Below are positions 2,084 through 31,042 of a DNA stretch of 36,468 nt, in pieces. The stretch's first letter is position 1. Each line of letters starts with the position of its first letter. The notes beneath the pieces are model-generated. The model searched no databases. It was not told where the DNA came from and saw only the letters and a program-made list of their open reading frames with translations. This DNA comes from Actinomycetota bacterium (GTDB lineage Bacteria > Actinomycetota > Actinomycetes > S36-B12 > UBA5976): the NCBI GenBank assembly GCA_947373075.1, contig CANBWF010000001.1, positions 1-36,468 of the forward strand, written 5' to 3'. The translations under genes and the position numbers were made by a program.

Positions 2084-5000
2084 GTGTCCAAGTTAATGAA
2101 GTTTGCTAGCAAGCTAGTTATTGCTGCCCTTGCAATCAGTTTTGTCGGTGCGGCAAGTCCAGCACAGGCGGCGCAGACGGGCGACCTAACTGTCAAGATT
2201 CATTACGCTCGTCAGGCCGGTGACTTCACGGGTCGATATGCATGGGTTTGGTACACAGGCACAAACGCAGCTGGCACGTTTACGGGCACTGGTGTTGTCA
2301 CCGCAGCCGGTGGCGCATGGATTCCAGTTAACAACAGTGGGGTTGACTCTTACGGAGCCGTTTCTACTTTCACGCTTACTGGCGGTCAGAACATAGATCG
2401 ATTCGGCATTATCGAATGTTCGACAAATTCTTGGGGCGCTAATAACTGTGGTCGTGATGCGGCCAGTGCTGCTGACCGCTTCATTCCAGTTTCTAGTTTG
2501 AGTACCGAAGTTTGGTTACGCTCAGGATCTGCAGCATCTGCTGACACCACCGTATATACTTCAGACTCACTAGCTCCGTACCCGGCAACTTCGCAGACTG
2601 TTAAAGTCCACTACAACCGCACTGATGGTAACTACAGCGGTTGGAAGGTGCACTTAGGCACTGAAAGTAAGATCATGGCTTCCACTTATTGGGTGAGCCC
2701 TACCGATTATGATTTTGACGCGACGAGTCCAGTTGGTTACTCGGTTGGCTCCGACCAATTCGGCGCGTTTATCGAAACTACTTTGCCTTATTACGCTGGT
2801 CAAACAAAAACAGTAAACATGGTTGTCTACTCCCTTGATGGGGCTGGAACTTGGGTTAAAGATGGTGGCAATGTAGATGGCAATCGCTATCTAGCCGCTG
2901 ATGCCAGCGGAGTTACCAACATCTGGTTAGTTTCTGGCGACACTACCGGGGCTGCTGCATTTGCGACCGAACCAGTGGTTGCAACTCCAACTCCAACTGC
3001 TACGGCAACATCAGTTCCAGCGCCGGTAATTTCTGGGCTGAGTGTGACAACTGCTTCTGCTGGCGATGAAGTAACCATAAGTGGAACCGACCTGCAAGCT
3101 GATGTAAACCAACCTTCGGTTGATGTCAGTGGGGTGCCTGCAACTGTTACCGCCAGCTCAGCAACATCTGTATCTTTCACTGTTCCTGCGGGCCTCACCG
3201 ATGGTGATGCCTCGGTTACATTGACCACAACAAGTGGAACTTCAAATGCCGTAACTCTGACAATCGCAACTAACCCAAATCCGAGCGGACCGACAATTGA
3301 TTCGTTCTCGCCTTCGGCTGCCCACGCAGGTGATGTAGTTGTGATTAGCGGTTCAGGTTTACTTGACGCAGTAGTAACCATTGATGGAGTGGCAGACCCG
3401 TTAAGTGCCATTTCTGGTGACACTTTTGTTTCGTTTACGATTCCGAACGATTTTGCTAGTGGCACTTACTTGATCACTGTTACGACAACAGCGGGTTCAG
3501 CTGCAGCTGGATACACCGTGTTACCTGTTGGTCCAGCCATTACCTCCATAACCGATGTGTTGGGCAACCCAATTTCACAGGTACAAATAGGTGATTTGGT
3601 TGTTATCAATGGCTCGAACTTCTCTGGAGTTGCTTCCGTTTCATTTGCCGGTCAGGATGCTGACCTAACCACACCGGACACCGTTCTTACCGATACTGCA
3701 CTTACAGTTACCGTTCCGGAATCGATTTCAGGCGTTGTGACAGTTACCACCGCAGGTGGCTCAACCACAAGTGACCCACTTACATTCCTAAATATTGCAG
3801 CACCTTCAATCGATGTAGTAGATCCATCCAGCGCTCGCGCTGGTGACCTAGTTTTCATCGGCGGTGCACATTTATTGGGTGGCTCAGTAACAATTGGTGG
3901 CTTAACCGCAGCAGGAGTTCTTACGACTGCTTCACTTCTAACGGTCACAATGCCATCTGGTTTATCCGCTGGCGACACCGCAGTCGTTGTAACAACTGAA
4001 GGCGGAAGCGCATCTTCATCGATCACAGTTTTGCCAAGTGCCCCATCAATTTCTTCGATTAGCGTTACGAATGCCAACCTTGGAGATGTAATTACGCTTT
4101 ATGGCGCGGACTTTATCGGTGCAACTGAAGTTTCCTTCAATGGAGCACTGGCAGACCTAACTAACCCTGCGTTTGCAGTCAGTTTCGATGGAACCTCACT
4201 ATCTGTTGTGGTGCCTGATGGTGCAACCACAGGTTTTGTTTCCGTAACAACGGAAAATGGAACTGGATCATTTGATGGATTGACCATCGGTGGACCAGCG
4301 CCTACAGATACTCCAACACCGACAGATACTCCAACACCGACAGATACTCCAACACCTCCAGCTGTTCCGGTTATCTCACTCTTGGATCCGCAGGCTGTTC
4401 AAAGTGGAGATGTTGTGACAATCTTGGGCACTGACTTCGGCAACAATCCAGTCGTGACTATTGGCGGTTTACCTGCTGAAGTTATCGATTGTGGATCTTA
4501 TGTTCAAGATGGTTCCGGTGTCTGGGCTCCAGATTTCAACCAGTGCAGTTCAGGCTCACTATTAGTCATTGTTCCAGATGGAATTCCTGTTGGTGCTGCT
4601 GATGTGGTTGTAAATTGGGATAACCAGACAACCGCGAACTCTTCACTGGCGATTGTTTCGCAACCGCCCACAATTGATGGTTTTAGTGACCAAAGTGGTA
4701 AAGCTGGCGATGTAATCACTATTTATGGTTCGCAACTAACGGATATCACTTCAATTACATTTGATGGCGATGGCTCATTTGGGCCGGTTAATGTCGATCT
4801 TGCTGATGTTAATTATGTGGCTAGTCCAGATGGTTCTTCAATCACATTTGCAGTGCCAAGCGGAGCTACGTCAGGCACTATCACCGTTACCACGTTCAGT
4901 GGCTTTGTGGTCAGCGATGATACGTTCGACATTATTCCAACACCAACCATTGATTCGCTGAGTGCAACAAGCGGTATTCCTGGTGACATCATCACAATCT

Positions 5001-5968
5001 ATGGAACCAATCTAGACAGCGTCTTGTCGGTAACTTTTAATGGCAACGAAGCTGATTTAACCGATTTCAATACGGTGGTTGCAGATGATGGAAGCAGTAT
5101 CTCGGTTACTGTTCCTGATACCGCAACAACAGGAAACATCACAGTTACTACAAGTGGTGGCACTGCAACATCTGCAGATATCTTTAACCTTGCATCAGGT
5201 CCAGAAATTATTTCATTGAGTTCGCTCATGGGACGCTCGGGTGCAATCTTGTCTATCAGTGGAGCCAACCTTGGTGGGCTGCAGTCAGTTTCATTTGATG
5301 GTGATGAAGATAGTGGACCAGTTTTTGCGGATCTAACAAGTCCGTTGACCGTCCTCACAGATTCTCGAGTCACAGTTGTGGTTCCAGATGGCACAACTTC
5401 AGGAACTATCACGCTGACAACAGCTGGGGGACTAGTCACTTCAGAAGATGTTTATGAAATTGTTGCTGGGCCAGTAGTAACTTCAATGAGCGATACATCA
5501 TTGAAGCCTGGTAGCACTTTGACTATCCGTGGCTCTGGTTTAACTTGGGCGAAAATTCGAATCCGTGGGGTTCTAGCAAGTGTTGTAGGAAGTTCTACCG
5601 ATACTCAGTTAAAGGTAACCGTTCCACAACTTGGCTCTGGTCGCACAACTTTGGTAATTACGACTCCAGGTGGAGTAATCACTCGTCAAGTTACTATTTC
5701 TTCACCAGCTCCGATAATCAAGTCCTTCACTCAGAGTGCATCTAAGAAGCGTGGGGTTGGAACTGTTGTTGTAACCGGCCGTAACTTGAATGGCGCCGTG
5801 GTCCGAGTTGGTAATATTGTCGTTAAGGTTCGACCTGGTTCGACCGCAACTCGCTTGGTATTTACTTTGCCAAAGCATGCTGCGGTTACAAAGAAGGGCA
5901 TCTTCAGCATCACAACTGATGGTGGAGTTGCAAAGAGTAAGGCAGTCCTTAAGATAACTGCTAAGTAG
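2084..5968 (+). CDS. Secreted 1294-aa non-catalytic surface protein with two PUD/CBM41-like modules and about eleven IPT/TIG-like Ig repeats
   Basis: GTG start 8 nt after a GAAGGAG RBS. Signal peptide ends in ASPAQA/AQ. PUD-like signatures VKIHYARQAGDFTGRYAWVWY and VKVHYNRTDGNYSGWKV. Repeats of about 85-90 aa follow the pattern P.I..(L/F)S....AGD.(V/I)TI.G..L...V.(F/I).G, then (V/I)TVTT.GG. PT-rich linkers. No GH motifs seen. Confidence 0.85.
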   Translation: MSKLMKFASKLVIAALAISFVGAASPAQAAQTGDLTVKIHYARQAGDFTGRYAWVWYTGTNAAGTFTGTGVVTAAGGAWIPVNNSGVDSYGAVSTFTLTGGQNIDRFGIIECSTNSWGANNCGRDAASAADRFIPVSSLSTEVWLRSGSAASADTTVYTSDSLAPYPATSQTVKVHYNRTDGNYSGWKVHLGTESKIMASTYWVSPTDYDFDATSPVGYSVGSDQFGAFIETTLPYYAGQTKTVNMVVYSLDGAGTWVKDGGNVDGNRYLAADASGVTNIWLVSGDTTGAAAFATEPVVATPTPTATATSVPAPVISGLSVTTASAGDEVTISGTDLQADVNQPSVDVSGVPATVTASSATSVSFTVPAGLTDGDASVTLTTTSGTSNAVTLTIATNPNPSGPTIDSFSPSAAHAGDVVVISGSGLLDAVVTIDGVADPLSAISGDTFVSFTIPNDFASGTYLITVTTTAGSAAAGYTVLPVGPAITSITDVLGNPISQVQIGDLVVINGSNFSGVASVSFAGQDADLTTPDTVLTDTALTVTVPESISGVVTVTTAGGSTTSDPLTFLNIAAPSIDVVDPSSARAGDLVFIGGAHLLGGSVTIGGLTAAGVLTTASLLTVTMPSGLSAGDTAVVVTTEGGSASSSITVLPSAPSISSISVTNANLGDVITLYGADFIGATEVSFNGALADLTNPAFAVSFDGTSLSVVVPDGATTGFVSVTTENGTGSFDGLTIGGPAPTDTPTPTDTPTPTDTPTPPAVPVISLLDPQAVQSGDVVTILGTDFGNNPVVTIGGLPAEVIDCGSYVQDGSGVWAPDFNQCSSGSLLVIVPDGIPVGAADVVVNWDNQTTANSSLAIVSQPPTIDGFSDQSGKAGDVITIYGSQLTDITSITFDGDGSFGPVNVDLADVNYVASPDGSSITFAVPSGATSGTITVTTFSGFVVSDDTFDIIPTPTIDSLSATSGIPGDIITIYGTNLDSVLSVTFNGNEADLTDFNTVVADDGSSISVTVPDTATTGNITVTTSGGTATSADIFNLASGPEIISLSSLMGRSGAILSISGANLGGLQSVSFDGDEDSGPVFADLTSPLTVLTDSRVTVVVPDGTTSGTITLTTAGGLVTSEDVYEIVAGPVVTSMSDTSLKPGSTLTIRGSGLTWAKIRIRGVLASVVGSSTDTQLKVTVPQLGSGRTTLVITTPGGVITRQVTISSPAPIIKSFTQSASKKRGVGTVVVTGRNLNGAVVRVGNIVVKVRPGSTATRLVFTLPKHAAVTKKGIFSITTDGGVAKSKAVLKITAK
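4304..4357 (+). repeat. Three tandem copies of an 18-bp unit (acagatactccaacaccg) encoding the PTDTPT linker
   Basis: Units at 4304-4321, 4322-4339 and 4340-4357 are identical except for the last base. They translate to (T)DTPTP x3 between IPT repeats 5 and 6. Confidence 0.9.
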
Positions 5969-10193: not shown

Positions 10194-12641
10194 GTGATTA
10201 CATCTAAGGCAATGGCTCGGAAAATCTTCGCGCCAATCCTTGCAACATTAATGGTTGCTGGTTTGTCAACAGGGCTGGCATCGCCGGCCAAGGCAGACGC
10301 GACAACAAAGCAAGTTGTTTTCCATTATCAATTTGATGGCAAGACAACATTCTCAGACACAAAAGGTCTTGAATTATATTTATGGGCTGGCGCTAACGGC
10401 GACTTCTACCCAAATGGCAATGACGCATACGGCAAGACTTTCACTTTCTCTGTGGATGCTGCTTCGAACTCACTTGGCGGTCTGTTCAAGTTCGGTTCGG
10501 ATTGGGATCACAAAGACAATGGCGGTGCAGCTGATCGCACTATCGCATTGAATGCTTCTGGCTCAACAGAACTATGGTTCCTTGGCAACACAACTGCGTC
10601 CTACTCGTCACTTGCTGATGCAGTAACTGCAGGCGGTGTAGCTGATGCTTACACATCAACTGGTACCGATCCAAACTATGACTGTGATGCAAATAACGTT
10701 TGTACCCCACATTTCGACGTTGTTTACCCAGCAAGCCAGCATGTAGTTATTCACTACCAGGATCCAGCAGCTACTAAGTTCTCTAGCTACAAGAACTGGG
10801 ATGTGTTCGTTTACTCAAACGGAAGCAACCATCCGAATGGTAACTACTTCAACGGATCAGATTCATTCGGTAAAGTTCTAGATTTGACTTTCACCGACAT
10901 GAGCAAAAATGCTTCTATCGGTGTCATCGTTCGTAAAACCAACTGGTCAGATCGTGCTGGTTGTGCAAGTTGTACTGGCGATTCTGGCGCTGATGGCAAG
11001 GGCGGAAACCGCGTGCTTACACTTAGCCTTTCATCAGGTGAAAATGAGTTCTGGATTGTACGCGGTGCTGACAATGAGCCTTACTACACATCACTTGCAG
11101 ATGCTCAGGCAGCTGGCGCAGTATCAGCTCCATGGGCTGAAGGCGCAGTAGACCCAGGCTATGGTTCAGATGGTCTTCCAGTTGCTGGCTACCCAGCAAA
11201 TCAGACCTTCACCATTCACTACAACCGCGCAGATGGCAATTACGGCGACTGGAACATCTGGATGTGGGGAACCGGTACAGCTCTTGACACAGGTCATGAC
11301 TTCACTGGAACAGACGCATACGGTGTTTACACAACACTTGAAGTTCCTGGTGATAATGATTCACTAGTGAGTGGTTTCGGCTACTTGCTTCGCAGCACCC
11401 ATGACTGGTCAAATGCAAGCAAGAACACCAACGACAACTGGGGTAACCAGATTGCTATTGACAACGTCTCAATTCCTGATGGCGGCAAGACCTCTGGTCT
11501 TACTGAAGTTTGGGTAAAGCAGGGCGATGCAACAAGCTACACCTCTAACCCATTCCCAGTTCCACATGTTGGCGCTGTTGCAGCATCTGCAGGCTATGGC
11601 CAGGCAGTGGCAATTGCTGGTACAGGTCTAACCGGCGCTAGCAGCGTGAAACTAGTTCGTGCTGCTGTCCCAGCTGTTACTGCGACCAAGGTTGGAAATG
11701 CTTGGAAGTGTGGATCAACCACACGTTCACAGGGTTACGTATGTACTGCTGCTGTTCCAGCCGCTACTGCAACTGCAGCCGCGAAGGTAGTTTCAGCAAC
11801 CAAGATTGTTGCTGCATTCCCTAACTCAGGTGCAATTACCGGCAAGATTGTGGTTTCAAACCCAGCGGGTACTTCAACATCTGCGGGATCACTAGCACTA
11901 AAAGCAACGAAGTCTGCTCCAAAGATCAGCACTTCCACTGCTAAGGGTGTAATTGGCGACACAGTAACAGTCACTGGTACCAACGTTGGTGCAGCAACTG
12001 GAGTCAAGCTAGGCACTTTGGACATCAGCGACTTCGCTGTGACCGATGTGAACAGCCTCACCTTCGTTGTTCCTGCTGGTGCAACCGATAGCAAGATCTC
12101 GGTTACTACTGCTGCTGGAACTGCAACTGCTGCTAAGGCATTCGCACTTGTACCTTCGATTTCTTCTGTATCTTCATCAGCAGCAATCGGCGGAACAGTA
12201 ACTGTCACAGGCGTTAACTTGGGCGCTGCATCTGCAGTTAAGTTGGGCACAAAGGCAATCACAGGTTTCACCAAGGGTGCAACCTCGATTAGCTTCACCG
12301 TTCCAACTGGCTCAGTAACCGGAACCGTAACCGTAACAACTCCTGGTGGAGTAGTTACCAGCGCGGATTCAGTGACTGTTATCCAGAAGCCAACCGTTAC
12401 ATCTGTAACTGGTGCAAAGACTGGTACTAAGTTCAACAAGGGTGCAACCCTAACGATTACTGGAGCTAACCTCTCAGGCGCAACTAGCGTTTTGATTGGT
12501 GCTTCAGCGGTCACTGGATTCACCGTTGTAGACAGCACACACATCACATTCACTGCGCCTACCAACAAAGTTGGCAAAGTAAGCGTGATCACCCCAGGTG
12601 GAACCGGTACATCTAGTGCGACGATTACGACCACTAGCTAA
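10194..12641 (+). CDS. Secreted 815-aa non-catalytic surface protein with three PUD/CBM41-like modules and four IPT/TIG-like repeats (cassette A)
   Basis: GTG start 6 nt after a GGAAGGAAG RBS. Signal peptide ends in ASPAKA/DA. Module starts VVFHYQFDG, VVIHYQDPAATKFSSYKNWDVFVY and FTIHYNRADGNYGDWNIWMWG, each ending (E/V)(L/F/V)W(F/I/V)..G....Y(S/T)S. The C-terminal half is made of K-rich Ig-like repeats. Colinear paralog at 24058. Confidence 0.85.
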   Translation: MITSKAMARKIFAPILATLMVAGLSTGLASPAKADATTKQVVFHYQFDGKTTFSDTKGLELYLWAGANGDFYPNGNDAYGKTFTFSVDAASNSLGGLFKFGSDWDHKDNGGAADRTIALNASGSTELWFLGNTTASYSSLADAVTAGGVADAYTSTGTDPNYDCDANNVCTPHFDVVYPASQHVVIHYQDPAATKFSSYKNWDVFVYSNGSNHPNGNYFNGSDSFGKVLDLTFTDMSKNASIGVIVRKTNWSDRAGCASCTGDSGADGKGGNRVLTLSLSSGENEFWIVRGADNEPYYTSLADAQAAGAVSAPWAEGAVDPGYGSDGLPVAGYPANQTFTIHYNRADGNYGDWNIWMWGTGTALDTGHDFTGTDAYGVYTTLEVPGDNDSLVSGFGYLLRSTHDWSNASKNTNDNWGNQIAIDNVSIPDGGKTSGLTEVWVKQGDATSYTSNPFPVPHVGAVAASAGYGQAVAIAGTGLTGASSVKLVRAAVPAVTATKVGNAWKCGSTTRSQGYVCTAAVPAATATAAAKVVSATKIVAAFPNSGAITGKIVVSNPAGTSTSAGSLALKATKSAPKISTSTAKGVIGDTVTVTGTNVGAATGVKLGTLDISDFAVTDVNSLTFVVPAGATDSKISVTTAAGTATAAKAFALVPSISSVSSSAAIGGTVTVTGVNLGAASAVKLGTKAITGFTKGATSISFTVPTGSVTGTVTVTTPGGVVTSADSVTVIQKPTVTSVTGAKTGTKFNKGATLTITGANLSGATSVLIGASAVTGFTVVDSTHITFTAPTNKVGKVSVITPGGTGTSSATITTTS

Positions 12642-12673
12642 TAAACCGGCCCACTAGGGCAAACAACTAGAGG

Positions 12674-12705
12674 CTGGGGTCTGTGACATTCGTTGCAGAC
12701 CCCAG
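12674..12705 (+). terminator. 10-bp GC-rich hairpin after the surface-protein gene (attenuator or partial terminator candidate)
   Basis: ctggggtctg (12674-12683) pairs with cagaccccag (12696-12705) around a 12-nt loop. Flanking ctag segments extend the pairing. There is only a weak T-tract downstream. Confidence 0.4.
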
Positions 12706-12875
12706 CACTAGATGTTTAAAGAGCAAGTTGCAATATCACAATGTTTGAAAAATGTAAGGACTGGAAATAATTTTCCATAGCGGCAAATATCTTGATCGGA
12801 TTTTGTTGGAAGCTGTCAGATTCGACAGCGGAGAGTTTTAAATAGGAGCATGACTCCGGAACAGGAAAGTTAATC

Positions 12876-14288
12876 ATGACGGGATACGTAGTTCAGGCTC
12901 GCAAAGCTTTGATCGCTGTTGTATCACTAGGGCTACTCACAGCTGGTGTGATTACAGCTCCAGCTAAGGCTGACACCCCTGCACGTAATCTAACAATCCA
13001 CTACTACCGTTCTTCGGTGGATGCCAATGGCACTGCTGATAACGGCTTCTGCGAAACAGATCCGTGTGGAGTTTATGCCGGTTGGAACATGTGGGTTTGG
13101 AATACTGGCGCAACTCCAGATCCAAACGGCACCGATGGTTTACAGTTTGATTCAACCGATAAGTATGGAGTAAAGGCGACCTTCGCTGTCGGCAATGCCG
13201 CTACAAACGTTGGATTCCTTGTCCGCATCGGAACTAACTGGTCTTGGGCTAAAGCCGATATTCCGGATGATCGTTTCATCGCGCTAAAGGCAACGGGAGA
13301 TACAGAAGTTTGGGTTAAGCAGGGAGATCCAGTCGTTTACACCTCAAACCCAAATGATCGCGTACTTCGTATTCATTACAACCGCGCGGACAACAAGTAC
13401 ACCGGTTGGGACATCAAAACGCAGGAAATCAATGCTGCCGACGATAAGGCCATACCTTTCTCGACCACGAATGATTGCTTCGGTCGTGTAGCGATGATCC
13501 AGGTGCCTGAAATTTCACAGTTAACTCAGGACTACATTTTGCGAAAAGGTGGAAATGCAGCGACCCTTAAGTCACGTAAATTTACCGCAACGCTCAGTGA
13601 TAAGAAATACACGGATGTCTGGTTGAATGCGAGTCTTTTCATGGGTGAAGACATCACCGTCGACGACGGGCCTGACACGTTCCTTGATATGAGTCAACAG
13701 GCGCAGAATCCAAATGGGAATTTGGTTGTAGTTCATTACAGTCGTCCTATTCAAGATTTCAATGGTTGGTCAATGACCACTATTGCTGATGGCATCAAAC
13801 ATCCGTTCACTGCAGTTGATCCAGGATTTGGCCGACTAGGTTGTGCTTATGTAACAGATAGAGCTGCCACATCTTCGATAGTCAAGATTACAAATGGTTC
13901 AAAGGTTGACTTAGGCTTTGGTGAAAATCCAGGCGGACTCGGTGGGCAACGCACAATTGCGATTGCTGGCTCAGTTACTGAAGTTTGGTTAAAGCAGGGT
14001 TACCCGACCGTATGGACAAAGCAGCAAGCACCAGATCCAGCCATTCAAAGCGGGCAAACCGTTAAGGGCGTTGTTAGCAGTCTTAAGCGTGGGAAATCTG
14101 TAGCTTTGCCTGTCAATACAAGTGCAAAGCTGAAAATCTCATGGTTCGTGCTTACCCCATTTAATTGCAAAATTAAATCTGGCAAGTTAATTGCTAAAGA
14201 CCCAGGAACCTGCAAATTAAATGCAACTCAAAAGGGAAATGTCGCCTTTATGGTTTTCACGGCCCAGTACAGAATAACTATCAAATAA
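12876..14288 (+). CDS. Secreted 470-aa multi-PUD/CBM41-like accessory protein with a basic C-terminal Ig-like domain (cassette A)
   Basis: Signal peptide ends in TAPAKA/DT. Module signatures LTIHYYRSS...GWNMWVW...EVWVKQGDPVVYTSNP, LRIHYNRADNKYTGWDI and VVVHYSRPIQDFNGWSM...EVWLKQG. The K-rich tail carries a Cys pair (FNCKIKSGKLIAKDPGTCKL). Paralog at 26727. Confidence 0.8.
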   Translation: MTGYVVQARKALIAVVSLGLLTAGVITAPAKADTPARNLTIHYYRSSVDANGTADNGFCETDPCGVYAGWNMWVWNTGATPDPNGTDGLQFDSTDKYGVKATFAVGNAATNVGFLVRIGTNWSWAKADIPDDRFIALKATGDTEVWVKQGDPVVYTSNPNDRVLRIHYNRADNKYTGWDIKTQEINAADDKAIPFSTTNDCFGRVAMIQVPEISQLTQDYILRKGGNAATLKSRKFTATLSDKKYTDVWLNASLFMGEDITVDDGPDTFLDMSQQAQNPNGNLVVVHYSRPIQDFNGWSMTTIADGIKHPFTAVDPGFGRLGCAYVTDRAATSSIVKITNGSKVDLGFGENPGGLGGQRTIAIAGSVTEVWLKQGYPTVWTKQQAPDPAIQSGQTVKGVVSSLKRGKSVALPVNTSAKLKISWFVLTPFNCKIKSGKLIAKDPGTCKLNATQKGNVAFMVFTAQYRITIK

Positions 14289-14351
14289 CTAAACAAAGAC
14301 AAGAGAGTTTAATTAACTCGCTTATCGAGCTTCAATCCTATGGAGGGAAAT

Positions 14352-15673: not shown

Positions 15674-17191
15674 GTGGTCGGGATTGTTTTCCGAATCTTA
15701 TTTCTCGGGCTGGTTGATTCCCTAGCCTTCTGGGCGGGTTCGCATCTTTTGGTCTCACGCAATTGGCTTGGCCTGGTCTGGCTATTAGTGGCAACCATCG
15801 CGATTAACTACGTTTACATTTCTAAGCGAGCCAGAGCTTCAAAGTGGTTGTTGCCTGGAACAATTCTGCTTATCGTATTCCAGATTTACCCGATTCTTTT
15901 TACTGCTACTGCAGCTTTCAGTAACTATTCAACAGCGCACTTTGTTTCTCGAAGCGAAGCTATCGATAACTTAGTGCAACAAAATATTCAGCAAGTGCCA
16001 GACAGTCCACAGTATTCAATCGTCCCAATTCACAATGGGGTAACTGTCGCTTTGGTAGTAACCGACCCAACTACAAACAAGGTTTATTTAGGTACCAAAG
16101 AGGCGCTAAAAGAAATTGCAAGTCCCAAGTTTGACGCGAATGGAATTCCGCAAGCTCCGGTGGGGTGGCGAGCATATTCTGAAGCCGAACTTAATACAGA
16201 TACGGTTCTAAACAATCTTTCAACACTCTTAGTACCTATGACTAAGCCAGAGGGCGCCTATCTAATGGTCAGCGACTTCACAACTGCATTCCAATTCGCT
16301 AGTGATGTGATTTATGACGCAAAGAAAGATCAGCTAATCCGACAATCTGATGGCTATGTATTCCCAGAGCGCGAGGGAGCTTTCATCGATTCTGATGGCA
16401 CTTCTCTTGATCCGGGCTGGCGCGTAAATGTTGGCTTTAAGAACTTCAAATCTGTACTAACCGATCCGGTAGTTCGGGGCCCATTCGTTCGCGTTCTAAT
16501 TTGGACTTTCGTTTACGCCGGTTTAACTGTATTAACCACATTTGTATTTGGCTTAACTCTGGCGTTGCTGCTGAACCACCCTGGGGTTAAGGGTCGCAAA
16601 CTATTGCGTTCCACGTTGATCATCCCTTATGCAATGCCTGGCTTCTTGTCTTTACTTATCTGGGCGGGTTTCCTCAATGATGACTTCGGTGTGATCAATA
16701 ATTTATTTAACTCGCACATCCCATGGTTGACTGATCCATTTTGGGCGAAGGTGTCAACAGTTTTGGTCAACCTTTGGCTTGGCTTCCCATACATGTTCTT
16801 GATCTGCACTGGTGCAATCCAGTCGATTCCGGCTGAATTAGCTGAAGCGGCCGAAGTTGATGGAGCTAAGCCACGGCAAATTTTGACGAAAATCAAAATG
16901 CCATTACTTCTTGTCACAGTTTCTCCATTGCTGATTGGATCTTTCGCCTATAACTTCAATAACTTCGGTGGTATTTATTTGTTGACTGGTGGTGGCCCGC
17001 CAGTAGCTGATTCTCAAATCGCTGGTGCGACCGACATTTTGATTTCTTACACATACAAATTGGCGATCGAAGCTGGACATGGAAATGACTATGGATTGGC
17101 TTGCGCCATTTCTATCTTGATCTTCTTCATCGTCGCGGGTGTTTCAACATTGTCGTTCACACGCACTCGCGCACTTGAGAACTTGAGCTAA
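15674..17191 (+). CDS. malF: MalF-type permease with a long extracytoplasmic (P2-like) loop, cassette A
   Basis: GTG start after a GGAG RBS. 505 aa. N-terminal TM helices are followed by a hydrophilic insert of about 180 aa. EAA motif ELAEAAEVDGAKPRQILTKIKMPLL. Confidence 0.9.
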   Translation: MVGIVFRILFLGLVDSLAFWAGSHLLVSRNWLGLVWLLVATIAINYVYISKRARASKWLLPGTILLIVFQIYPILFTATAAFSNYSTAHFVSRSEAIDNLVQQNIQQVPDSPQYSIVPIHNGVTVALVVTDPTTNKVYLGTKEALKEIASPKFDANGIPQAPVGWRAYSEAELNTDTVLNNLSTLLVPMTKPEGAYLMVSDFTTAFQFASDVIYDAKKDQLIRQSDGYVFPEREGAFIDSDGTSLDPGWRVNVGFKNFKSVLTDPVVRGPFVRVLIWTFVYAGLTVLTTFVFGLTLALLLNHPGVKGRKLLRSTLIIPYAMPGFLSLLIWAGFLNDDFGVINNLFNSHIPWLTDPFWAKVSTVLVNLWLGFPYMFLICTGAIQSIPAELAEAAEVDGAKPRQILTKIKMPLLLVTVSPLLIGSFAYNFNNFGGIYLLTGGGPPVADSQIAGATDILISYTYKLAIEAGHGNDYGLACAISILIFFIVAGVSTLSFTRTRALENLS

Positions 17192-17202
17192 GGGGACCAC
17201 TG

Positions 17203-18141
17203 ATGACTACTGATGTAATCGCAAAACCTACTCCAAGTGCACCGCGTAGGGCAGTTAAGAAGCGTAAGCCGTATCGTGGAAAGCTTTGGTGGCGCTATTT
17301 AGCAGCAGCGTTCGCTGTTGCCTTCGCGCTTGCCCCAATTGTTTATGTAGTACTAGCTGCCTGTAACCCAGCTGGAACGTTATCTACCCTAAATTTCTCA
17401 GTTCATGATTTTGGTTTGGATAACTTCCGCTTCCTATTAGGAAAGCATGACCTGAGCGCCGAAGTAACTTACGAAAATTATCCGTACCTACTGTGGTACC
17501 GAAATTCATTGATGGTTTCTTCAATCGCTGCGATTATGCAGGTAACTATTGGAACAGCTTCGGCTTATGCGTTTAGTCGCATCCATTTCAAGGGACGTCG
17601 GTTAAGCCTCGGTGGGCTGTTACTACTTCAGATGTTCCCCCAGATTCTCTCATTTATTGCACTGTTCCTAATCATGCAGAAAATCGGCGCTGTATTCCCA
17701 TTCATGGGCACTGGAACATGGGCGGGCTTAGTGCTTATTTACTTGGGTGGCGCAATGGGTTACAACACCTATTTGCTCAAGGGTTTCTTCGACACGATTC
17801 CACGTGAACTAGATGAAGCAGCAACTGTTGATGGGGCTAGTGCGAATCAGATTTTCTTCAAAATCATTCTTCCGCTTGCCACGCCAATGCTCGCGGTTGT
17901 CATGCTGCTTGCGTTTATCGGCCTAATGAATGACTTCATTCTGGCCAGTATCTTCCTGACTAAGTCGGATCAGATGACATTGGCTGTGGGCTTGCGGTCC
18001 TTTATTTCAGGTCGCTACGAGTCAAGCTGGGGTGTTTTCGCGGCCGGAGCGTTGATGGCGGCCCTACCAGTTGTTATCTTGTTCCAGGTTTTGCAGCGTT
18101 ACATCGTTGAAGGTTTGTCAGCTGGCTCGGTTAAAGGTTAA
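17203..18141 (+). CDS. malG: MalG-type permease, cassette A
   Basis: 312 aa. GGGGA RBS. ELDEAATVDGASANQIFFKIILPLATP. C-terminal QRYIVEGLSAGSVKG. Confidence 0.9.
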   Translation: MTTDVIAKPTPSAPRRAVKKRKPYRGKLWWRYLAAAFAVAFALAPIVYVVLAACNPAGTLSTLNFSVHDFGLDNFRFLLGKHDLSAEVTYENYPYLLWYRNSLMVSSIAAIMQVTIGTASAYAFSRIHFKGRRLSLGGLLLLQMFPQILSFIALFLIMQKIGAVFPFMGTGTWAGLVLIYLGGAMGYNTYLLKGFFDTIPRELDEAATVDGASANQIFFKIILPLATPMLAVVMLLAFIGLMNDFILASIFLTKSDQMTLAVGLRSFISGRYESSWGVFAAGALMAALPVVILFQVLQRYIVEGLSAGSVKG

Positions 18142-18202: not shown

Positions 18203-21127
18203 ATGAAAAAGCACAATAAGAACTGGCGATTTACTCGGGTAGCTACCTTTGCAGCGTTGCTCTTTGCTGCTGTAGGCATGTATGGCTTTGCGCCAGCTTC
18301 CGCAAAAACAAGCAGCACCATAACGATTCACTACAACCGACCTGACGGGGTTTACACAGATTGGAACATGTGGATTTGGTTCCCGGGCTCTTCATCAGCA
18401 GAGCAGGCGACCCACGGTCTAGCTGATAGTCGTAATCTGTTCACTGGTTCGGATTCTTATGGCAGGGTGCTTACGCTAAACCTGACCGACATGGAAACGA
18501 TCAAGAAGATTGGTTTCATCGTTCGTAAAGATGACTGGACAAAAGATATTGGCTCCGACCGATTCATAACTAGTTTTGACGGCTCGGGTAATGCTGAGAT
18601 TTGGATTCGATCAAACATCGAAAAGGTCTACACCGGTGTGCCATGTTTGTGTGCTGAAATCTACAGCGCAACACAAGATGACTACCGCACCATCAATGTG
18701 ACACTTAGTGAGCCATTTAGTGGCGCGACCAATGGAACTGGCGCCCAGGGTTGGACTGTTTCAGGTGGACTTAACGTTGTTTCAGCTGTTGCAACTGGCG
18801 GAAAGAATCCACGAAATACTCGCGCACTGACTTTGACACTTGATGCCGACATGGATTTGAGTGCCCAATACACGATTAATAACACTCGAACTTTTACGGT
18901 GACTAAGAAGGCGGTTGCGAACAATGTCGCAACAATTACTACTTCAACAGATTCAGGCGTAACTGTTGGCGAAACCCTTCGGATCAGTGATGTCGGCTCA
19001 CCATTTAATGGAGTACAAAAAGTAACTGCAGCCACAACCGTTTCGCCATTTACCTTCTCGTTTGCAGTTACCAACGCAAATGTACCTGCAGCCTCTGCAT
19101 CAGGGTCTGTTGAAACTGGTTTTGGTAGTGCTCCAGTTGTGATTGGCAATATCTTCGCATCACAGAAGTTTGCCGATCAATTCACTTACACCGGAAACGA
19201 CTTAGGTAATACCTACACGCAAGCTAAAACAGACTTCCGAGTATGGGCACCAACCGCTTCTGCGGTTTCGCTCCTAACATTTGGAAACTCTTGGGCTGAA
19301 GGTGGCGCACCAGTTGATCCGACCACTCTGCCTGAAGCCACAGTGAAGCCGATGACTCCAAGTGTTAATGGAACATGGACGACTTCACTATCCGGCGACC
19401 AGCATGGAACTATCTATCAGTATCAGGTTTCCGTCGGCGGTGAAGTCCACAACACTATTGATCCGTATGCACGAGCATCTCTGGCTAACGGAACCAAGGG
19501 TGTGGTTGTAGATCTGGCTAAGACCAACCCAACAGTTTGGACCGCTTCCAAACCAGCCTTTACTGGACGGGCAGTTGATGCATCAGTTTATGAAATACAT
19601 GTTCGTGATTTGTCAGTTGATGCTCACAGTGGGATTCCAGCCAATCACAAAGGCAAGTATTTGGCCTTTGCTGACCTAAACACGAAATACTCGAAAAAGG
19701 TTGGCAAGAAGACCCTCACCACCAAGACTGGTCTTAGCGCAATCAAGGAACTTGGCATTACTCACATAGAGTTGCAGCCAATTTATGACTTCACTTCGGT
19801 TGATGAGACTGGAACTGGGAACCCATTCAACTGGGGCTATGACCCACAAAATTACAATATCCCTGAGGGTTCTTACTCCACTAATGCCAATGATCCGATC
19901 TCGCGCATTAAAGAGTTGAAAACTGCAGTTCAAGCAATGCACGCAAATGGATTGCGCGTGAACATGGACGTTGTTTACTCACATGTGGGAAGTGCAACCG
20001 ACTACAGTTATCAGCAGATTGTTCCTGGCTACTTCTACCGCACTGAACCTTCCGGCGCTTTGGCAAACGGAAGTGGTTGCGGCAATGAAATTGCCTCTGA
20101 ACGTCCGATGGCTCGTAAATTTATGGTTGATTCATTCAAGTATTGGGCTACGGAATATCACATGGACGGTTTCCGCCTAGATCAAATGGGGCTTCTTGAC
20201 ATCCCAACGGCGCAGGCTATTCGCACTGCTATAGACACAGTTGATCCGACAATAATCACCTTTGGTGAAGGTTGGAATATCGGAGATGTATTAGCTGCAA
20301 ATAATCGAGCTAATCAGCCGAACTTGGCTCAGATTCCAGGTTTTGGTGTGTTCAACGACCAGATTCGCGATGGCGTAAAGGGATCTACCGGAAACGCTAC
20401 TGGCCCTGGTTGGATCTCCGGCGCAACCTACTTGAACCAAGATGTAATCGCAGGTATCACTGGAAACACCAATTACAGCAATTCGGTTTATCCAAACTTC
20501 ACTACTGTGAACCCTGGTCAGTCAGTTAACTATGTAGAGTCACATGACAACCTGACTCTGTACGACAAGCTGCAGGCAAGTGTTCGCGGAGCTACTCCAG
20601 CGAAGAAGGCTACTTTTGTACAGATGGCTGGTGCAATCACGATTCTTGCCCAAGGCATGCCATTCCAGCAGGCTGGTCAGGAATTCATGCGCAGCAAGGG
20701 TGGTAACGGCAACAGCTACAACGCAACTGACGCAGTGAACTCACTCAAGTGGTCTGAACGTATAACAAATGCGACAACTACTTCCTACTACTCAGGGCTG
20801 TATGCAATTCGTAAAGCGCATCCGGCTTTCCGTATGTGGACTACTGCGCAGGTGAAGAAGAATCTAAAATTCATCAACACTGGTATGGATGACGTGATCG
20901 CATATTCGCTCAATGGAAAAGCTATGGGCGATAGTTGGAAGTCGATCGTTGTTGTGCATAACACCGAGACGATTCCGACTCAGGTAAGTTTGCCATCGAC
21001 TGGAGATTGGAAGATTTATGTTTCCGGTTCTTCCGCAACGGCTAACTCAGCGAAGCCACTCAAGACACTTAAGCGTGCCTACAACGTGACTGTGCCAGCA
21101 CTTACCACGGTGGTTATCGCTAAGTAA
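18203..21127 (+). CDS. pulA: Secreted type I pullulanase (GH13) with an N-terminal CBM41-like module
   Basis: Signal peptide ends in APASA/KT. PUD signature ITIHYNRPDGVYTDWNMWIW. Pullulanase motif FNWGYDPQNYNIPEGSYS. GH13 regions MDVVYSHVG, DGFRLDQMG, FGEGWN, YVESHDNLTLYD. Confidence 0.9.
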   Translation: MKKHNKNWRFTRVATFAALLFAAVGMYGFAPASAKTSSTITIHYNRPDGVYTDWNMWIWFPGSSSAEQATHGLADSRNLFTGSDSYGRVLTLNLTDMETIKKIGFIVRKDDWTKDIGSDRFITSFDGSGNAEIWIRSNIEKVYTGVPCLCAEIYSATQDDYRTINVTLSEPFSGATNGTGAQGWTVSGGLNVVSAVATGGKNPRNTRALTLTLDADMDLSAQYTINNTRTFTVTKKAVANNVATITTSTDSGVTVGETLRISDVGSPFNGVQKVTAATTVSPFTFSFAVTNANVPAASASGSVETGFGSAPVVIGNIFASQKFADQFTYTGNDLGNTYTQAKTDFRVWAPTASAVSLLTFGNSWAEGGAPVDPTTLPEATVKPMTPSVNGTWTTSLSGDQHGTIYQYQVSVGGEVHNTIDPYARASLANGTKGVVVDLAKTNPTVWTASKPAFTGRAVDASVYEIHVRDLSVDAHSGIPANHKGKYLAFADLNTKYSKKVGKKTLTTKTGLSAIKELGITHIELQPIYDFTSVDETGTGNPFNWGYDPQNYNIPEGSYSTNANDPISRIKELKTAVQAMHANGLRVNMDVVYSHVGSATDYSYQQIVPGYFYRTEPSGALANGSGCGNEIASERPMARKFMVDSFKYWATEYHMDGFRLDQMGLLDIPTAQAIRTAIDTVDPTIITFGEGWNIGDVLAANNRANQPNLAQIPGFGVFNDQIRDGVKGSTGNATGPGWISGATYLNQDVIAGITGNTNYSNSVYPNFTTVNPGQSVNYVESHDNLTLYDKLQASVRGATPAKKATFVQMAGAITILAQGMPFQQAGQEFMRSKGGNGNSYNATDAVNSLKWSERITNATTTSYYSGLYAIRKAHPAFRMWTTAQVKKNLKFINTGMDDVIAYSLNGKAMGDSWKSIVVVHNTETIPTQVSLPSTGDWKIYVSGSSATANSAKPLKTLKRAYNVTVPALTTVVIAK

Positions 21128-26529: not shown

Positions 26530-26580
26530 GTATCTAGAGTTGGGGCGAGCAATGCTTCCGCAAGCCCGAACTCTAGATAC
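26530..26580 (+). terminator. 17-bp hairpin (one mismatch) after the cassette B surface-protein gene
   Basis: gtatctagagttggggc (26530-26546) pairs with gcccgaactctagatac (26564-26580). No clear U-tract follows. Its position matches 12674-12705. Confidence 0.4.
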
Positions 26581-26726
26581 TGTGCTGTCGGCTCATAGTT
26601 TGGTCTGCTGGGCCGCAGAGAAAGAAAGGACCAGTCCCCGGATCGAATGGGTAAGTGCCAGCTCTGGGGAGGGTAAGTGGAATAGAGTTTTTTCGGGTCA
26701 ATATTCTAAGGAAGTCAGGGTTTATC

Positions 26727-28151: not shown

Positions 28152-28211
28152 TTAATTAGTGCGTTCAAGCTCTTTGGGCGACGCACATCGCTTTAATCCT
28201 TAGGAGGGAAT

Positions 28212-29423: not shown

Positions 29424-29451
29424 CTAAGAAGAACTGAGCAATCATGCTCAA

Positions 29452-29497
29452 AACGGAGTATGTGATAGCTGTAATTTGGCCTGTCACATACTCCGTT
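29452..29497 (+). promoter_or_regulatory. 14-bp hairpin in the malE-malF intergenic region, cassette B
   Basis: aacggagtatgtga (29452-29465) pairs with tcacatactccgtt (29484-29497). Extra pairing is possible inside the loop. No U-tract follows. Confidence 0.55.
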
Positions 29498-29536
29498 CCA
29501 TAAATGTTGTGACTATTCTGAAAGTGGAGTGTTTTA

Positions 29537-31030: not shown

Positions 31031-31042
31031 GGGGAACAACAG

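What the first reader, a model, noticed from the sequence alone, without database searches (positions are those of the whole stretch)
11560..12641. CBM41-IPT surface proteins lack any recognisable anchor but have a conserved, strongly basic C-terminal IPT array
Neither the 815-aa nor the 816-aa protein has an LPXTG-type sorting signal, SLH, LysM or choline-binding repeats, or a C-terminal TM helix. Both simply end in SSAT(I/Y)TTTS. In the last ~330 residues of the 815-aa protein I count about 24 Lys/Arg against about 7 Asp and no Glu, while the N-terminal CBM half is visibly Asp/Glu-rich. The C-terminal repeats are also the best conserved part between the paralogs (for example GAKTGTKFNKGATLTI in both). 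This suggests a polar design. A cationic Ig-repeat stalk may bind electrostatically to an anionic wall polymer or to a partner protein, while variable acidic CBMs point outward.
Basis: partly seen in the sequence, partly recalled or inferred. Interest (0 to 1): 0.65.

Follow-up and report, generated by a model that had tools for sequence, protein, structure and literature searches.

The report
Anchorless starch-binding proteins with cationic stalk
Two paralogous secreted proteins of an uncultured freshwater actinomycete carry acidic starch-binding heads on a conserved, positively charged four-domain stalk and have no known anchor, so they are most likely held on the negatively charged cell wall by charge, which is a plausible but untested variant of known non-covalent wall attachment.

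Summary
Protein A (815 aa, 10194-12641) and paralog B (816 aa, 24058-26508) each have a cleavable signal peptide, three acidic CBM41 modules (pI 4.4) and four C-terminal IPT/TIG domains (pI 10.2; A: 24 K/R, 7 D, 0 E). Pfam, NCBIfam and motif scans find no anchor, although NCBIfam does detect T9SS and MYXO-CTERM signals on homologous IPT proteins.

The stalk is under stronger purifying selection than the heads, and this is not gene conversion. Its lysines are positionally conserved. Its closest structural relatives are the Ig-like spacer stalks of Bacteroides surface glycan-binding proteins (SGBP-B).

The same acidic-body, basic-C-terminus polarity recurs in other proteins of the locus. It is sharpest in a 1294-aa neighbour with ten acidic IPT blocks followed by two strongly basic terminal ones.

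The MalE binding proteins also lack a lipobox and have pI near 10, as do 120 homologues.

Best reading: these are SGBP-like alpha-glucan capture proteins of maltodextrin ABC-uptake loci, retained by a cationic C-terminal stalk in an anionic wall, which low freshwater ionic strength would favour. The anchoring step is inferred, not shown. A general basic shift of freshwater secretomes is the main rival. This is a new variant of a known kind, of moderate interest.

The parts
10194..12641 (+). Gene A: 815-aa secreted CBM41x3-IPTx4 protein (GTG start; double stop)
   Evidence: ORF list; translation; Pfam PUD 3 stretches and TIG; conserved start in P0315
10194..10295 (+). Signal peptide, residues 1-34; SPase-I type c-region SPAKA, cleavage predicted before D35; no lipobox Cys
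   Evidence: Sequence read directly. The same (A/S)PAxA motif occurs in every secreted protein of the locus
10305..11543 (+). Three CBM41 (PUD) modules, about residues 38-135, 181-295 and 336-450, with Cys-containing linkers; acidic (22 basic, 47 acidic; pI 4.4)
   Evidence: Pfam PUD E=3.7e-32, best stretch 338-450; strand pattern in the full-length model, which has low confidence here; charge
11559..11909 (+). IPT1, residues 456-572, with an insertion carrying a Cys pair (KCGSTTRSQGYVC); 9 basic, 0 acidic
   Evidence: AF2 model pLDDT 93, pTM 0.79; charge. The insertion is absent in P0004 and lacks Cys in B
11910..12155 (+). IPT2, residues 573-654; nearly neutral (6 basic, 5 acidic)
12156..12389 (+). 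IPT3, residues 655-732; 4 basic, 1 acidic; contains the invariant VK-GTKA-TGFTKGAT
12390..12638 (+). IPT4, residues 733-815; the terminal domain and the best conserved (pN 0.19 against B); ends on its own G strand, SSATITTTS
   Evidence: Seven strands at high pLDDT, including the last residues
12411..12446 (+). Lys-rich A-B loop of IPT4 (G740-A751, GAKTGTKFNKGA), replacing the canonical SGPxGGT loop. K742, K749 and K792 are invariant in six sequences. By Ig-fold topology the loop lies at the free C-terminal tip of the rod (inferred)
   Evidence: Alignment invariants; secondary structure of the model; comparison with canonical IPT tails
12663..12715 (+). Strong stem-loop just after the stop of gene A (-42.5 kcal/mol, z = -7.1). 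A similar one follows gene B at about 26530-26580
24058..26508 (+). Gene B: 816-aa paralog with the same architecture. Its IPT array is at 25423-26505 (27 basic, 9 acidic; pI 10.2)
2084..5968 (+). 1294-aa CBM41 + ~12 IPT protein. Ten IPT blocks carry 0-2 basic and 5-11 acidic residues each
5465..5965 (+). Terminal two IPT domains of the 1294-aa protein: 24 basic, 3 acidic (Fisher p = 2e-13 against the rest). The last one is a distinct 'cap' subtype shared with P0288, P0258, P0025, P0391 and the upstream 2933-aa giant
12876..14288 (+). 470-aa CBM41 accessory protein, always next to the CBM41-IPT gene. Its last ~95 aa (14001-14285) have 15 basic and 2 acidic residues
14340..15560 (+). MalE-like solute-binding protein with an SPase-I signal (APAAHA), no lipobox Cys and pI 9.9
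15674..18141 (+). MalF (with an acidic P2 loop, pI 4.6) and MalG permeases
18203..21127 (+). Secreted CBM41-CBM48-GH13 pullulanase, 974 aa, with no anchor
26655..31975 (+). Second copy of the module: accessory protein (probably starts at the ATG at 26727, giving 474 aa), MalE (no lipobox, pI 9.8), MalF and MalG

Best explanation
A and B are non-catalytic, cell-surface alpha-glucan (starch, glycogen or pullulan) capture proteins. Each heads a conserved operon in an uncultured freshwater actinomycete: CBM41-IPT protein, CBM41 accessory protein, MalE, MalF, MalG and a secreted pullulanase.

After Sec export and signal-peptide cleavage, the three acidic CBM41 modules form the distal ligand-binding head. 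The four IPT domains form a stiff rod, estimated at roughly 15 nm from four Ig-like domains, which is the cell-proximal end.

The rod carries net +17 charge on positionally conserved lysines. Three invariant lysines sit at the free tip of the last domain. The rod is proposed to lodge non-covalently in an anionic wall matrix, while the acidic heads are repelled outward. In lake water the low ionic strength makes such charge interactions long-range and strong.

What is shown:
- the domain architecture
- the charge polarity and its conservation
- stronger purifying selection on the stalk
- absence of every searched anchor
- operon conservation
- structural likeness to SGBP-B stalks
- recurrence of basic C-terminal modules in neighbouring proteins

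What is inferred:
- cell association
- the orientation
- the anionic wall partner
- the electrostatic mechanism
For: Architecture and charge.

Absence of an anchor, with a positive control.

Stalk structure: the model has pLDDT 93.1 and pTM 0.79 and shows four 7-stranded domains. The best PDB matches are SGBP-B proteins: by sequence 6e57 at E = 1.4e-7, and by fold 5e7g at 9e-12, then 6e57 and 7k44. In SGBP-B the Ig-like domains do not bind glycan and are proposed to project the binding domain away from the membrane (PMC4850273).

Selection: synonymous sites are saturated throughout (pS 0.64-0.75). pN falls from 0.41 in the CBM half to 0.19-0.27 in IPT2-4. Lys identity is 0.75, similar to Gly and Pro, and 15 of 24 basic positions are basic in at least 4 of 5 non-redundant relatives. 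All relatives keep net +15 to +17, including P0315, which was returned as a separate representative in the 50%-identity clustered library.

Recurrence of the polarity:
- The 1294-aa protein flips from ten acidic IPT blocks to two basic terminal IPTs (p = 2e-13).
- The same terminal cap occurs in giant proteins P0288, P0258 and P0025 and in the upstream 2933-aa protein.
- The accessory proteins and the secreted amylase have basic last ~100 aa.

C-terminus as the anchor end: homologous IPT arrays carry T9SS, MYXO-CTERM or dockerin modules there.

The stalk is unlikely to bind glycan. It has only 12 aromatic residues in 360 aa.

Synteny is conserved in at least 3 other assemblies. The habitat is lake water.

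Precedent: Lactobacillus S-layer proteins have a high-pI wall-binding region that binds teichoic acids (PMC3666127).
Against: - There is no experimental or in-silico test of wall binding, and the wall polymers of this lineage are unknown.
- Charge density is moderate at +4.7 per 100 aa, and IPT2 is nearly neutral.
- 39% of unrelated IPT arrays also have pI above 9.
- Nearly all secreted proteins of the locus are basic: MalE pI 9.8-10.2, accessory proteins 9.0, pullulanase 8.5. Freshwater secretomes are basic-shifted in general (PMC6706942). Basic charge need not therefore mean 'anchor'.
- The family is tiny, with about seven sequences, so the conservation statistics rest on few lineages.
- Signal-peptide cleavage is predicted only from sequence.
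Confidence: 0.45

Rival explanations
1. The basic charge is the general freshwater adaptation of secreted proteins (solubility and low ionic strength), not an anchor. The proteins would be retained by something else or only loosely. The stalk would be conserved because it is a structural spacer.
For: PMC6706942 reports a basic shift in freshwater proteomes, strongest in secreted proteins. MalE, the accessory proteins, the pullulanase and the YkuD protein in the window are all basic. All 120 MalE homologues have pI 9.0-10.3.
Against: A global shift cannot explain strongly acidic exposed modules in the same proteins: the CBM41 heads at pI 4.4, and ten IPT blocks with 0-2 basic residues each in the 1294-aa protein. 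It also cannot explain why the basic part is always C-terminal, or why the lysine positions are conserved.
Confidence: 0.22
2. The IPT array, especially the conserved tip of IPT4, docks on a specific protein partner. Candidates are the co-conserved accessory protein, the acidic MalF P2 loop, a pilus or an S-layer. This would assemble a surface complex analogous to Sus or amylosome complexes.
For: Gene order with the accessory protein and the transporter is strictly conserved. The MalF P2 loop is acidic, pI 4.6. IPT4 is the most conserved domain and has an unusual invariant loop.
Against: The soluble operon partners (accessory protein, MalE) are themselves cationic at the relevant ends, which argues against electrostatic pairing. 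Pfam finds no cohesin, dockerin or other known docking module. A membrane-level partner such as MalF would leave a rod estimated at about 15 nm buried in the wall.
Confidence: 0.15
3. The proteins are freely released starch-binding or aggregating factors and are not cell-associated.
For: No anchor of any known type was found.
Against: A non-catalytic binding protein released by a planktonic cell in dilute lake water would be lost by diffusion and could not deliver substrate to the adjacent ABC importer (inference). The stalk is under stronger constraint than the binding heads.
Confidence: 0.1
4. A cryptic covalent anchor exists, for example attachment to peptidoglycan by an L,D-transpeptidase or an undescribed sorting enzyme that recognises the conserved C-terminal end.
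For: The C-terminal ending is conserved as ..SSA[ST][IY][ST]T[TA]S. A secreted YkuD L,D-transpeptidase is encoded at 34547-35257. Five of ten secreted proteins in the window end in Lys, as Braun's lipoprotein does; the Braun's lipoprotein comparison is from established knowledge.
Against: A and B end in Ser, not Lys. The ending is the structured G strand of IPT4 at high pLDDT. C-terminal Lys is not conserved among the MalE homologues, where Gly ends 85 of 120. No sorting-signal model matches.
Confidence: 0.05

Closest known systems
Bacteroides surface glycan-binding proteins SGBP-B (BoSGBP-B of the xyloglucan PUL, PDB 5E7G; MLGUL SGBP-B, 6E57) and SusE/SusF
   Same: Both are non-catalytic. Both are encoded in a glycan-uptake locus. 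Both use tandem Ig-like/IPT domains as a stiff spacer carrying a distal glycan-binding module. SGBP-B proteins are the best sequence and fold matches of the stalk.
   Different: SGBP-B is N-terminally lipidated on an outer membrane and works with SusC/D, with its binding domain at the C-terminus. Here the polarity is reversed, with N-terminal CBM41 heads and a C-terminal stalk. There is no lipid anchor, the partner is an ABC importer in a monoderm lineage, and the stalk is cationic.
High-pI cell-wall-binding regions of Lactobacillus S-layer proteins (SlpA, CbsA)
   Same: A secreted protein without LPXTG or SLH, with one strongly basic region proposed or shown to bind anionic wall polymers (teichoic acids) non-covalently (PMC3666127).
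   Different: There is no sequence or fold relationship. Those regions are SLAP-type repeats in a lattice-forming protein. Here the basic part is an IPT rod carrying CBMs, and no wall ligand is known.
Sortase-anchored CBM41 pullulanases of streptococci (SpuA, PulA, SAP)
   Same: CBM41 modules displayed at a Gram-positive surface to capture alpha-glucans (PMC2582482, listed but not read in detail).
   Different: Those proteins are enzymes with an LPXTG anchor. A and B have neither a catalytic domain nor LPXTG.
'Choice-of-anchor' IPT repeat proteins (NCBIfam NF058597 CoaZ_rpt_PGGG) with MYXO-CTERM, T9SS or dockerin tails
   Same: They use the same repeat type. The 1294-aa neighbour scores 85 bits and B matches weakly. 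The anchor module is at the C-terminus.
   Different: Here the C-terminal position is occupied by basic IPT domains instead of a recognised sorting signal.
Gram-positive polysaccharide utilisation loci (gpPULs) of Firmicutes
   Same: They co-locate CAZymes, an ABC transporter with its binding protein, and a regulator (PMC5320581, listed).
   Different: From general knowledge, surface components there are typically LPXTG-anchored and the binding proteins are lipoproteins. Here neither holds.

Membership tests
CBM41 (Pfam PUD) containing proteins | Match to PF03714 above the gathering score | tested here: met
   A scores 111.5 bits in 3 stretches. B scores 136.8 bits in 3 stretches. The cut-off is 25.
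CBM41 (Pfam PUD) containing proteins | Binding of alpha-1,4/alpha-1,6 glucans | not testable with these tools
   Inferred from the family and from the context of GH13 amylases, pullulanases and MalEFG.
IPT/TIG (E-set Ig-like) domain arrays | Match to PF01833 and a 7-stranded beta-sandwich fold | tested here: met
   TIG scores 45.8 bits (A) and 53.5 bits (B). AF2 gives four 7-stranded domains at pLDDT 93. Fold matches include plexin IPT and SGBP-B.
Sortase substrates (LPXTG cell-wall anchor) | C-terminal LPXTG-like motif, then a hydrophobic segment, then a basic tail | tested here: not met
   No such motif and no C-terminal hydrophobic window. No NCBIfam sorting-signal hit at E <= 1.
Bacterial lipoproteins | Lipobox [LVI][ASTVI][GAS]C at the end of the signal peptide | tested here: not met
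   There is no Cys in the signal peptides of A, B, the accessory proteins or MalE. The c-regions are (A/S)PAxA.
SLH, LysM, choline-binding, GW, WxL and CWB2 non-covalent wall-binding modules | Match to the respective Pfam models | tested here: not met
   Pfam scan at E <= 0.1 returns only PUD and TIG.
T9SS CTD, PEP-CTERM or MYXO-CTERM sorting domains | Match to TIGR04183, TIGR03901 or related models at the C-terminus | tested here: not met
   There is no hit on the last 133 aa of A or the last 167 aa of the 1294-aa protein. The same search detects these models on homologous IPT proteins.
Bacteroides SGBP-B / SusE-F type surface glycan-binding proteins | Tandem Ig-like spacer domains plus a glycan-binding module, non-catalytic | tested here: met
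   PMC4850273.
Bacteroides SGBP-B / SusE-F type surface glycan-binding proteins | N-terminal lipidation and genetic linkage to a SusC/SusD pair | tested here: not met
   There is no lipobox. The neighbours are MalEFG ABC components, not SusC/D. It therefore works like an SGBP but is not a member.
Electrostatic wall-binding regions (Lactobacillus S-layer type) | High-pI region distinct from the rest of the protein | tested here: met
   pI 10.2 against 4.4.
Electrostatic wall-binding regions (Lactobacillus S-layer type) | Salt- or LiCl-extractable binding to teichoic acid or another anionic wall polymer | not testable with these tools
   This needs biochemistry on cells or purified walls.

The most novel reading that the evidence does not exclude
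Abundant freshwater low-GC actinomycetes may retain their whole extracytoplasmic nutrient-capture apparatus without lipid or sortase anchors. Cationic C-terminal IPT 'cap' or stalk domains would constitute a new class of non-covalent wall-targeting module. The non-lipidated solute-binding proteins with pI near 10 would be held in the wall in the same way. This strategy would only be workable at lake-water ionic strength, and it could help explain why such lineages do not cross into the sea.
Probability: 0.25. Interest if true: 0.7.

Novelty: new variant of a known kind. Interest (0 to 1): 0.5.

Why it matters
If the cationic IPT stalk is a wall-targeting module, it adds a new fold to the small list of non-covalent Gram-positive anchors. 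It would also provide a sequence signature for finding surface proteins in uncultured freshwater Actinomycetota, where standard predictors (LPXTG, lipobox) find nothing.

It would define an actinobacterial counterpart of the Bacteroides SGBP and Sus paradigm for capture of algal storage glucans in lakes.

Together with the non-lipidated, highly basic binding proteins, it suggests a concrete and testable link between cell-envelope electrostatics and the freshwater-marine divide. If the charge is only the general freshwater shift, the finding reduces to an ordinary annotation of a starch-utilisation locus.

Tried and rejected
- Gene conversion as the cause of the higher C-terminal identity is rejected. 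Synonymous sites are saturated in all segments.
- SSAT(I/Y)TTTS as a sorting signal is rejected. It is the last strand of IPT4, and many unrelated IPT proteins end the same way.
- A downstream anchor lost by frameshift is rejected. There is a double stop, no coding frame follows, and the stop is conserved in all relatives.
- C-terminal Lys as an L,D-transpeptidase attachment site is not supported. A and B end in Ser, and the Lys is not conserved in the MalE homologues.
- The homologue search with the basic tail of the 1294-aa protein gave a single hit, because of the limit of the word index. Relatives of the cap were instead found among the representative-search hits.
- The full-length AF2 model of A was low-confidence in the CBM half (pLDDT 62.7, only 6 sequences) and added only rough domain limits.
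- The profile search of 1.8 billion representatives was swamped by giant multi-IPT proteins. Only P0249 and P0315 were true family members.
- Three exact-match look-ups for right-flank genes found nothing. The right flank from L007 showed no wall-polymer genes beyond those in the window.
- The promoter and terminator consensus scan was uninformative.
- Taxonomy could not be refined beyond 'MAG: Actinomycetes bacterium ELA390'. Assignment to Ca. Planktophila is only a guess, based on GC near 47% and the report that CBM41 occurs only in that genus among Nanopelagicales (PMC12817590).
- The literature search for sortase in Nanopelagicales returned nothing.
Full report
**What is there**

The window carries a series of alpha-glucan utilisation modules, all on the + strand:
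- the permease genes of a first ABC system (102-1871)
- a 1294-aa CBM41 + IPT protein (2084-5968)
- two GH13 amylases (6016-9953)
- protein A (10194-12641, 815 aa)
- a 470-aa CBM41 'accessory' protein
- MalE, MalF and MalG
- a secreted pullulanase (18203-21127)
- MarR and a GDSL hydrolase
- a second copy of the module: protein B (24058-26508, 816 aa), accessory protein, MalE, MalF and MalG

The order CBM41-IPT, accessory, MalE, MalF, MalG, pullulanase is kept in other assemblies. Upstream of the window, related contigs carry a third module with a 2933-aa CBM41 + TIG giant and a 1271-aa pullulanase.

The closest genome hit is 'MAG: Actinomycetes bacterium isolate ELA390'. The DNA is found in lake and freshwater metagenomes from about ten studies. 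Short fragments at 90-99% identity occur in three lake metatranscriptomes, which is weak evidence of expression.

**Check of the observation**

- The last 330 residues of A hold 22 K + 2 R against 7 D and no E (pI 10.2, net +17).
- Residues 36-455 of A hold 22 basic against 47 acidic residues (pI 4.4).
- B behaves the same way.
- The contrast between halves is significant: Fisher p = 3e-5 for A and 4e-4 for B.

Against 116 distantly related IPT arrays, net charge per 100 residues averages +0.2 (sd 2.2). This family lies at +4.2 to +5.1, and only 2.6% of the background reaches +4. pI by itself is less discriminating, because 39% of those arrays exceed pI 9.

The paralogs are 39% identical in the CBM half, 57% in the IPT half and 64% in the last 245 residues. 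Both contain GAKTGTKFNKGATLTI and end in SSAT(I/Y)TTTS.

Pfam finds only PUD (CBM41) and TIG. NCBIfam finds no sorting signal. There is no LPXTG-like motif, no C-terminal hydrophobic segment and no lipobox. Nothing coding follows the stop.

As a positive control, the same NCBIfam search recognises Por_Secre_tail and MYXO-CTERM on the C-termini of homologous IPT-array proteins, but nothing on the tails of A or of the 1294-aa protein.

The only correction is that the finding's start is one base out of frame. Codon 456 starts at 11559.

**Anatomy**

The signal peptide (residues 1-34) has the c-region SPAKA. All secreted proteins of the locus share an (A/S)PAxA site, and none has a lipobox. The first CBM41 strand starts about four residues after the predicted cleavage site, so the N-terminus cannot be a spaced membrane tether.

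An AlphaFold model of residues 456-815 is confident (pLDDT 93.1, pTM 0.79). It shows four 7-stranded beta-sandwich domains:
- IPT1 (456-572), which has an insertion
- IPT2 (573-654)
- IPT3 (655-732)
- IPT4 (733-815)

The conserved C-terminal ending is the G strand of IPT4, not a free tail.

The charge is carried by IPT1 (9 basic, 0 acidic), IPT3 (4, 1) and IPT4 (5, 1). IPT2 is nearly neutral at 6 basic and 5 acidic.

In IPT4 the canonical SGPxGGT A-B loop is replaced by GAKTGTKFNKGA. K742, K749 and K792 are invariant in the six available sequences. From the topology of a 7-stranded Ig fold, the A-B and E-F loops lie at the same pole as the C-terminus, which is the free tip of the rod. This is an inference from topology, because the coordinates could not be inspected.

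**Is the stalk under selection?**

Synonymous sites between A and B are saturated everywhere (pS 0.64-0.75). The higher C-terminal identity is therefore not due to recent gene conversion. Non-synonymous divergence falls from 0.41 in the CBM half to 0.19-0.27 in IPT2-4.

Lysine is as well conserved as glycine and proline: mean identity 0.75 against 0.77 and 0.80. Fifteen of the 24 basic positions are basic in at least four of five non-redundant relatives.

All relatives keep the polarity. They are P0001-P0004 and P0315, the last of which was returned as a separate representative in the 50%-identity clustered library.

The family is small. Only about seven sequences were found among 5.8 billion clustered proteins and 1.8 billion representatives.

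**Relatives by structure**

The best PDB match by sequence is the Bacteroides ovatus MLGUL SGBP-B (6e57, E = 1.4e-7). By fold, the top hits are SGBP-B of the xyloglucan PUL (5e7g, 9e-12), 6e57 and 7k44, followed by generic Ig arrays such as plexin and titin.

In SGBP-B, three tandem Ig-like domains do not bind glycan. They are proposed to project a distal binding domain away from the lipid-anchored end (PMC4850273).

A and B thus work like SGBPs with reversed polarity: heads at the N-terminus and stalk at the C-terminus.

The stalk has only 12 aromatic residues in 360. This argues against a glycan-binding role for it.

**The wider pattern**

The same polarity is present in other proteins.
- The 1294-aa neighbour has ten IPT blocks with 0-2 basic and 5-11 acidic residues each. 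Its last two IPT domains then have 24 basic and 3 acidic residues (p = 2e-13).
- Its last domain is a distinct terminal 'cap' subtype (..F.QS.S.KRGVGTVTV.G.NL.GA.VKVG.., ending ..LKIT[AIV][KS]). This cap sits at the C-terminus of giant proteins P0288 (2765 aa), P0258 (4803 aa), P0025 and P0391, and of the upstream 2933-aa protein. Where charge was computed (P0288, P0258, P0025, the upstream 2933-aa protein), the bodies are mostly acidic or neutral.
- The accessory proteins and the secreted amylase have basic last ~100 residues, net +11 to +12.
- Homologous IPT arrays in other phyla carry their recognised anchors (T9SS CTD, MYXO-CTERM, dockerin) at the C-terminus. The IPT repeats of the 1294-aa protein belong to NCBI's 'choice-of-anchor Z' repeat family.

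By analogy, the C-terminus is the cell-proximal end here too.

**An unexpected companion finding**

The MalE binding proteins of all modules have SPase-I type signals, no lipobox cysteine and pI 9.7-10.2.
- All 120 best homologues, at 40-94% identity, have mature pI between 9.0 and 10.3. Some of them are named Actinomycetales, Ca. Nanopelagicales or Actinomycetota MAGs.
- Of the 111 that start at Met, 10 have any Cys in the first 45 residues.
- Only four of these have a Cys that could conceivably be a lipobox.

In monoderm bacteria, binding proteins are normally lipid- or helix-tethered (established knowledge). The retention problem therefore extends to the whole apparatus. The periplasmic P2 loop of MalF is acidic, pI 4.6.

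**Most likely mechanism**

A and B are exported, and their signal peptides are cleaved. The cationic IPT rod associates non-covalently with an anionic wall matrix, while the acidic CBM41 heads are repelled outward. The heads capture alpha-glucans for the secreted amylases and pullulanase, and the products are taken up through MalEFG.

Low ionic strength in lakes gives Debye lengths of several nanometres, against less than 1 nm in physiological saline (established physical chemistry). This makes such binding far more effective than in saline habitats.

The nearest precedent for the binding mode is the high-pI wall-binding region of Lactobacillus S-layer proteins, which binds teichoic acids (PMC3666127).

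A possible source of wall anionic charge is hinted at by a 787-aa protein with a polysaccharide pyruvyl-transferase domain next to the second module. No link to the stalk is shown.

The binding step, the orientation and the wall ligand are inferred. I put the composite explanation at 0.45. The SGBP-like role on its own is much more secure.

**Rivals**

1. The basic charge is the general freshwater shift of secreted proteins (PMC6706942). This accounts for the basic MalE and enzymes. It does not account for the strongly acidic exposed modules in the same polypeptides, or for the strictly C-terminal location of the basic part.
2. A specific protein partner. The soluble operon partners are themselves cationic, and no docking module is present. 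The conserved IPT4 tip would nevertheless suit such a role.
3. Free release. This is functionally implausible for a non-catalytic protein of a planktonic cell.
4. A cryptic covalent anchor, for example through the neighbouring YkuD L,D-transpeptidase. Nothing supports this for A and B.

**Verdict**

It is a new variant of known kinds, combining SGBP-like stalked glycan binders with electrostatic non-covalent wall association. It occurs in an ecologically important, uncultured freshwater lineage. Interest is moderate.

Noticed in passing
window 14340-15560 and 28212-29423; L004 7121-8335; L002 3057-4268: All MalE-type solute-binding proteins have SPase-I signals, no lipobox Cys and pI 9.7-10.2. 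The 120 best homologues (40-94% identity; freshwater Actinomycetales and Nanopelagicales MAGs) are the same, with pI 9.0-10.3 and at most 4 doubtful lipoboxes. How an untethered binding protein is retained in a monoderm is unexplained.
   Followed up: partly
window 2084-5968 (basic tail 5465-5965): The 1294-aa CBM41 + IPT protein switches abruptly from ten acidic IPT blocks to two strongly basic terminal IPTs. The last domain is a distinct terminal 'cap' subtype shared with giant proteins P0288, P0258, P0025 and P0391 and with the upstream 2933-aa protein.
   Followed up: partly
window 32100-34463 and 34547-35257: A 787-aa cytoplasmic protein with a partial polysaccharide pyruvyl-transferase domain (PF04230, 41.8 bits) is followed by a secreted YkuD L,D-transpeptidase, directly after the second module. 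This arrangement is conserved in L007. It could relate to an anionic (pyruvylated) wall glycan, but no link is shown.
   Followed up: no
window 12663-12715 and about 26530-26580: Strong stem-loops lie immediately downstream of both CBM41-IPT genes (-42.5 kcal/mol, z = -7.1; -32.5 kcal/mol, z = -4.7). Both have CTAGA/TCTAGA at the stem base. They may be partial terminators or mRNA stabilisers that set a higher level of the first gene product.
   Followed up: partly
L004 / L005 1-8335 (upstream of the window): There is a third alpha-glucan module upstream: a 2933-aa CBM41 + TIG giant, a 1271-aa pullulanase, MalE, MalF and MalG. The region thus holds three ABC systems and at least four CBM41-IPT proteins.
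   Followed up: partly
window 10194-12641 (residues 164-171 and 505-517) and 24058-26508: The linkers between CBM41 modules contain Cys pairs (DCDANNVCTP in A, CDGNNVCTP in B). There are CxxC motifs inside CBM41 loops. IPT1 of A has a Cys-pair insertion (KCGSTTRSQGYVC) that lacks Cys in B and is absent in P0004. These are probably disulfides.
   Followed up: no
window: C-termini of ORFs 2084-5968, 7851-9953, 12876-14288, 14340-15560, 18203-21127: Five of ten signal-peptide proteins in the window end in Lys, against one of eleven non-secreted ones. This is not conserved among the MalE homologues, where Gly ends 85 of 120, so it is probably a by-product of the basic C-terminal composition.
   Followed up: partly
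window 26655-28151: The 498-aa ORF of the second accessory protein probably starts at the internal ATG at 26727, giving 474 aa as called in four other assemblies. Similarly, the MarR ORF is called as 146 aa rather than 182.
   Followed up: partly
window 11735-12634 (-) and 25584-26378 (-): Long antisense ORFs (299 and 264 aa) lie opposite the IPT arrays. They are most likely artefacts of the biased Thr/Ala/Gly/Val codon composition. No evidence for a gene was sought.
   Followed up: no
window 12284-12542: One metatranscriptome contig (run X22) joins 12284 to 12542, skipping 257 nt between IPT3 and IPT4. The shorter side of the joint is only 21 nt. This is probably an assembly artefact across the repeats, or a variant from a related strain.
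   Followed up: no
window 15674-17191: The large extracytoplasmic P2 loop of MalF (about residues 90-270) is acidic, with 15 basic and 22 acidic residues and pI 4.6. This is opposite in charge to the cationic MalE it should dock.
   Followed up: no
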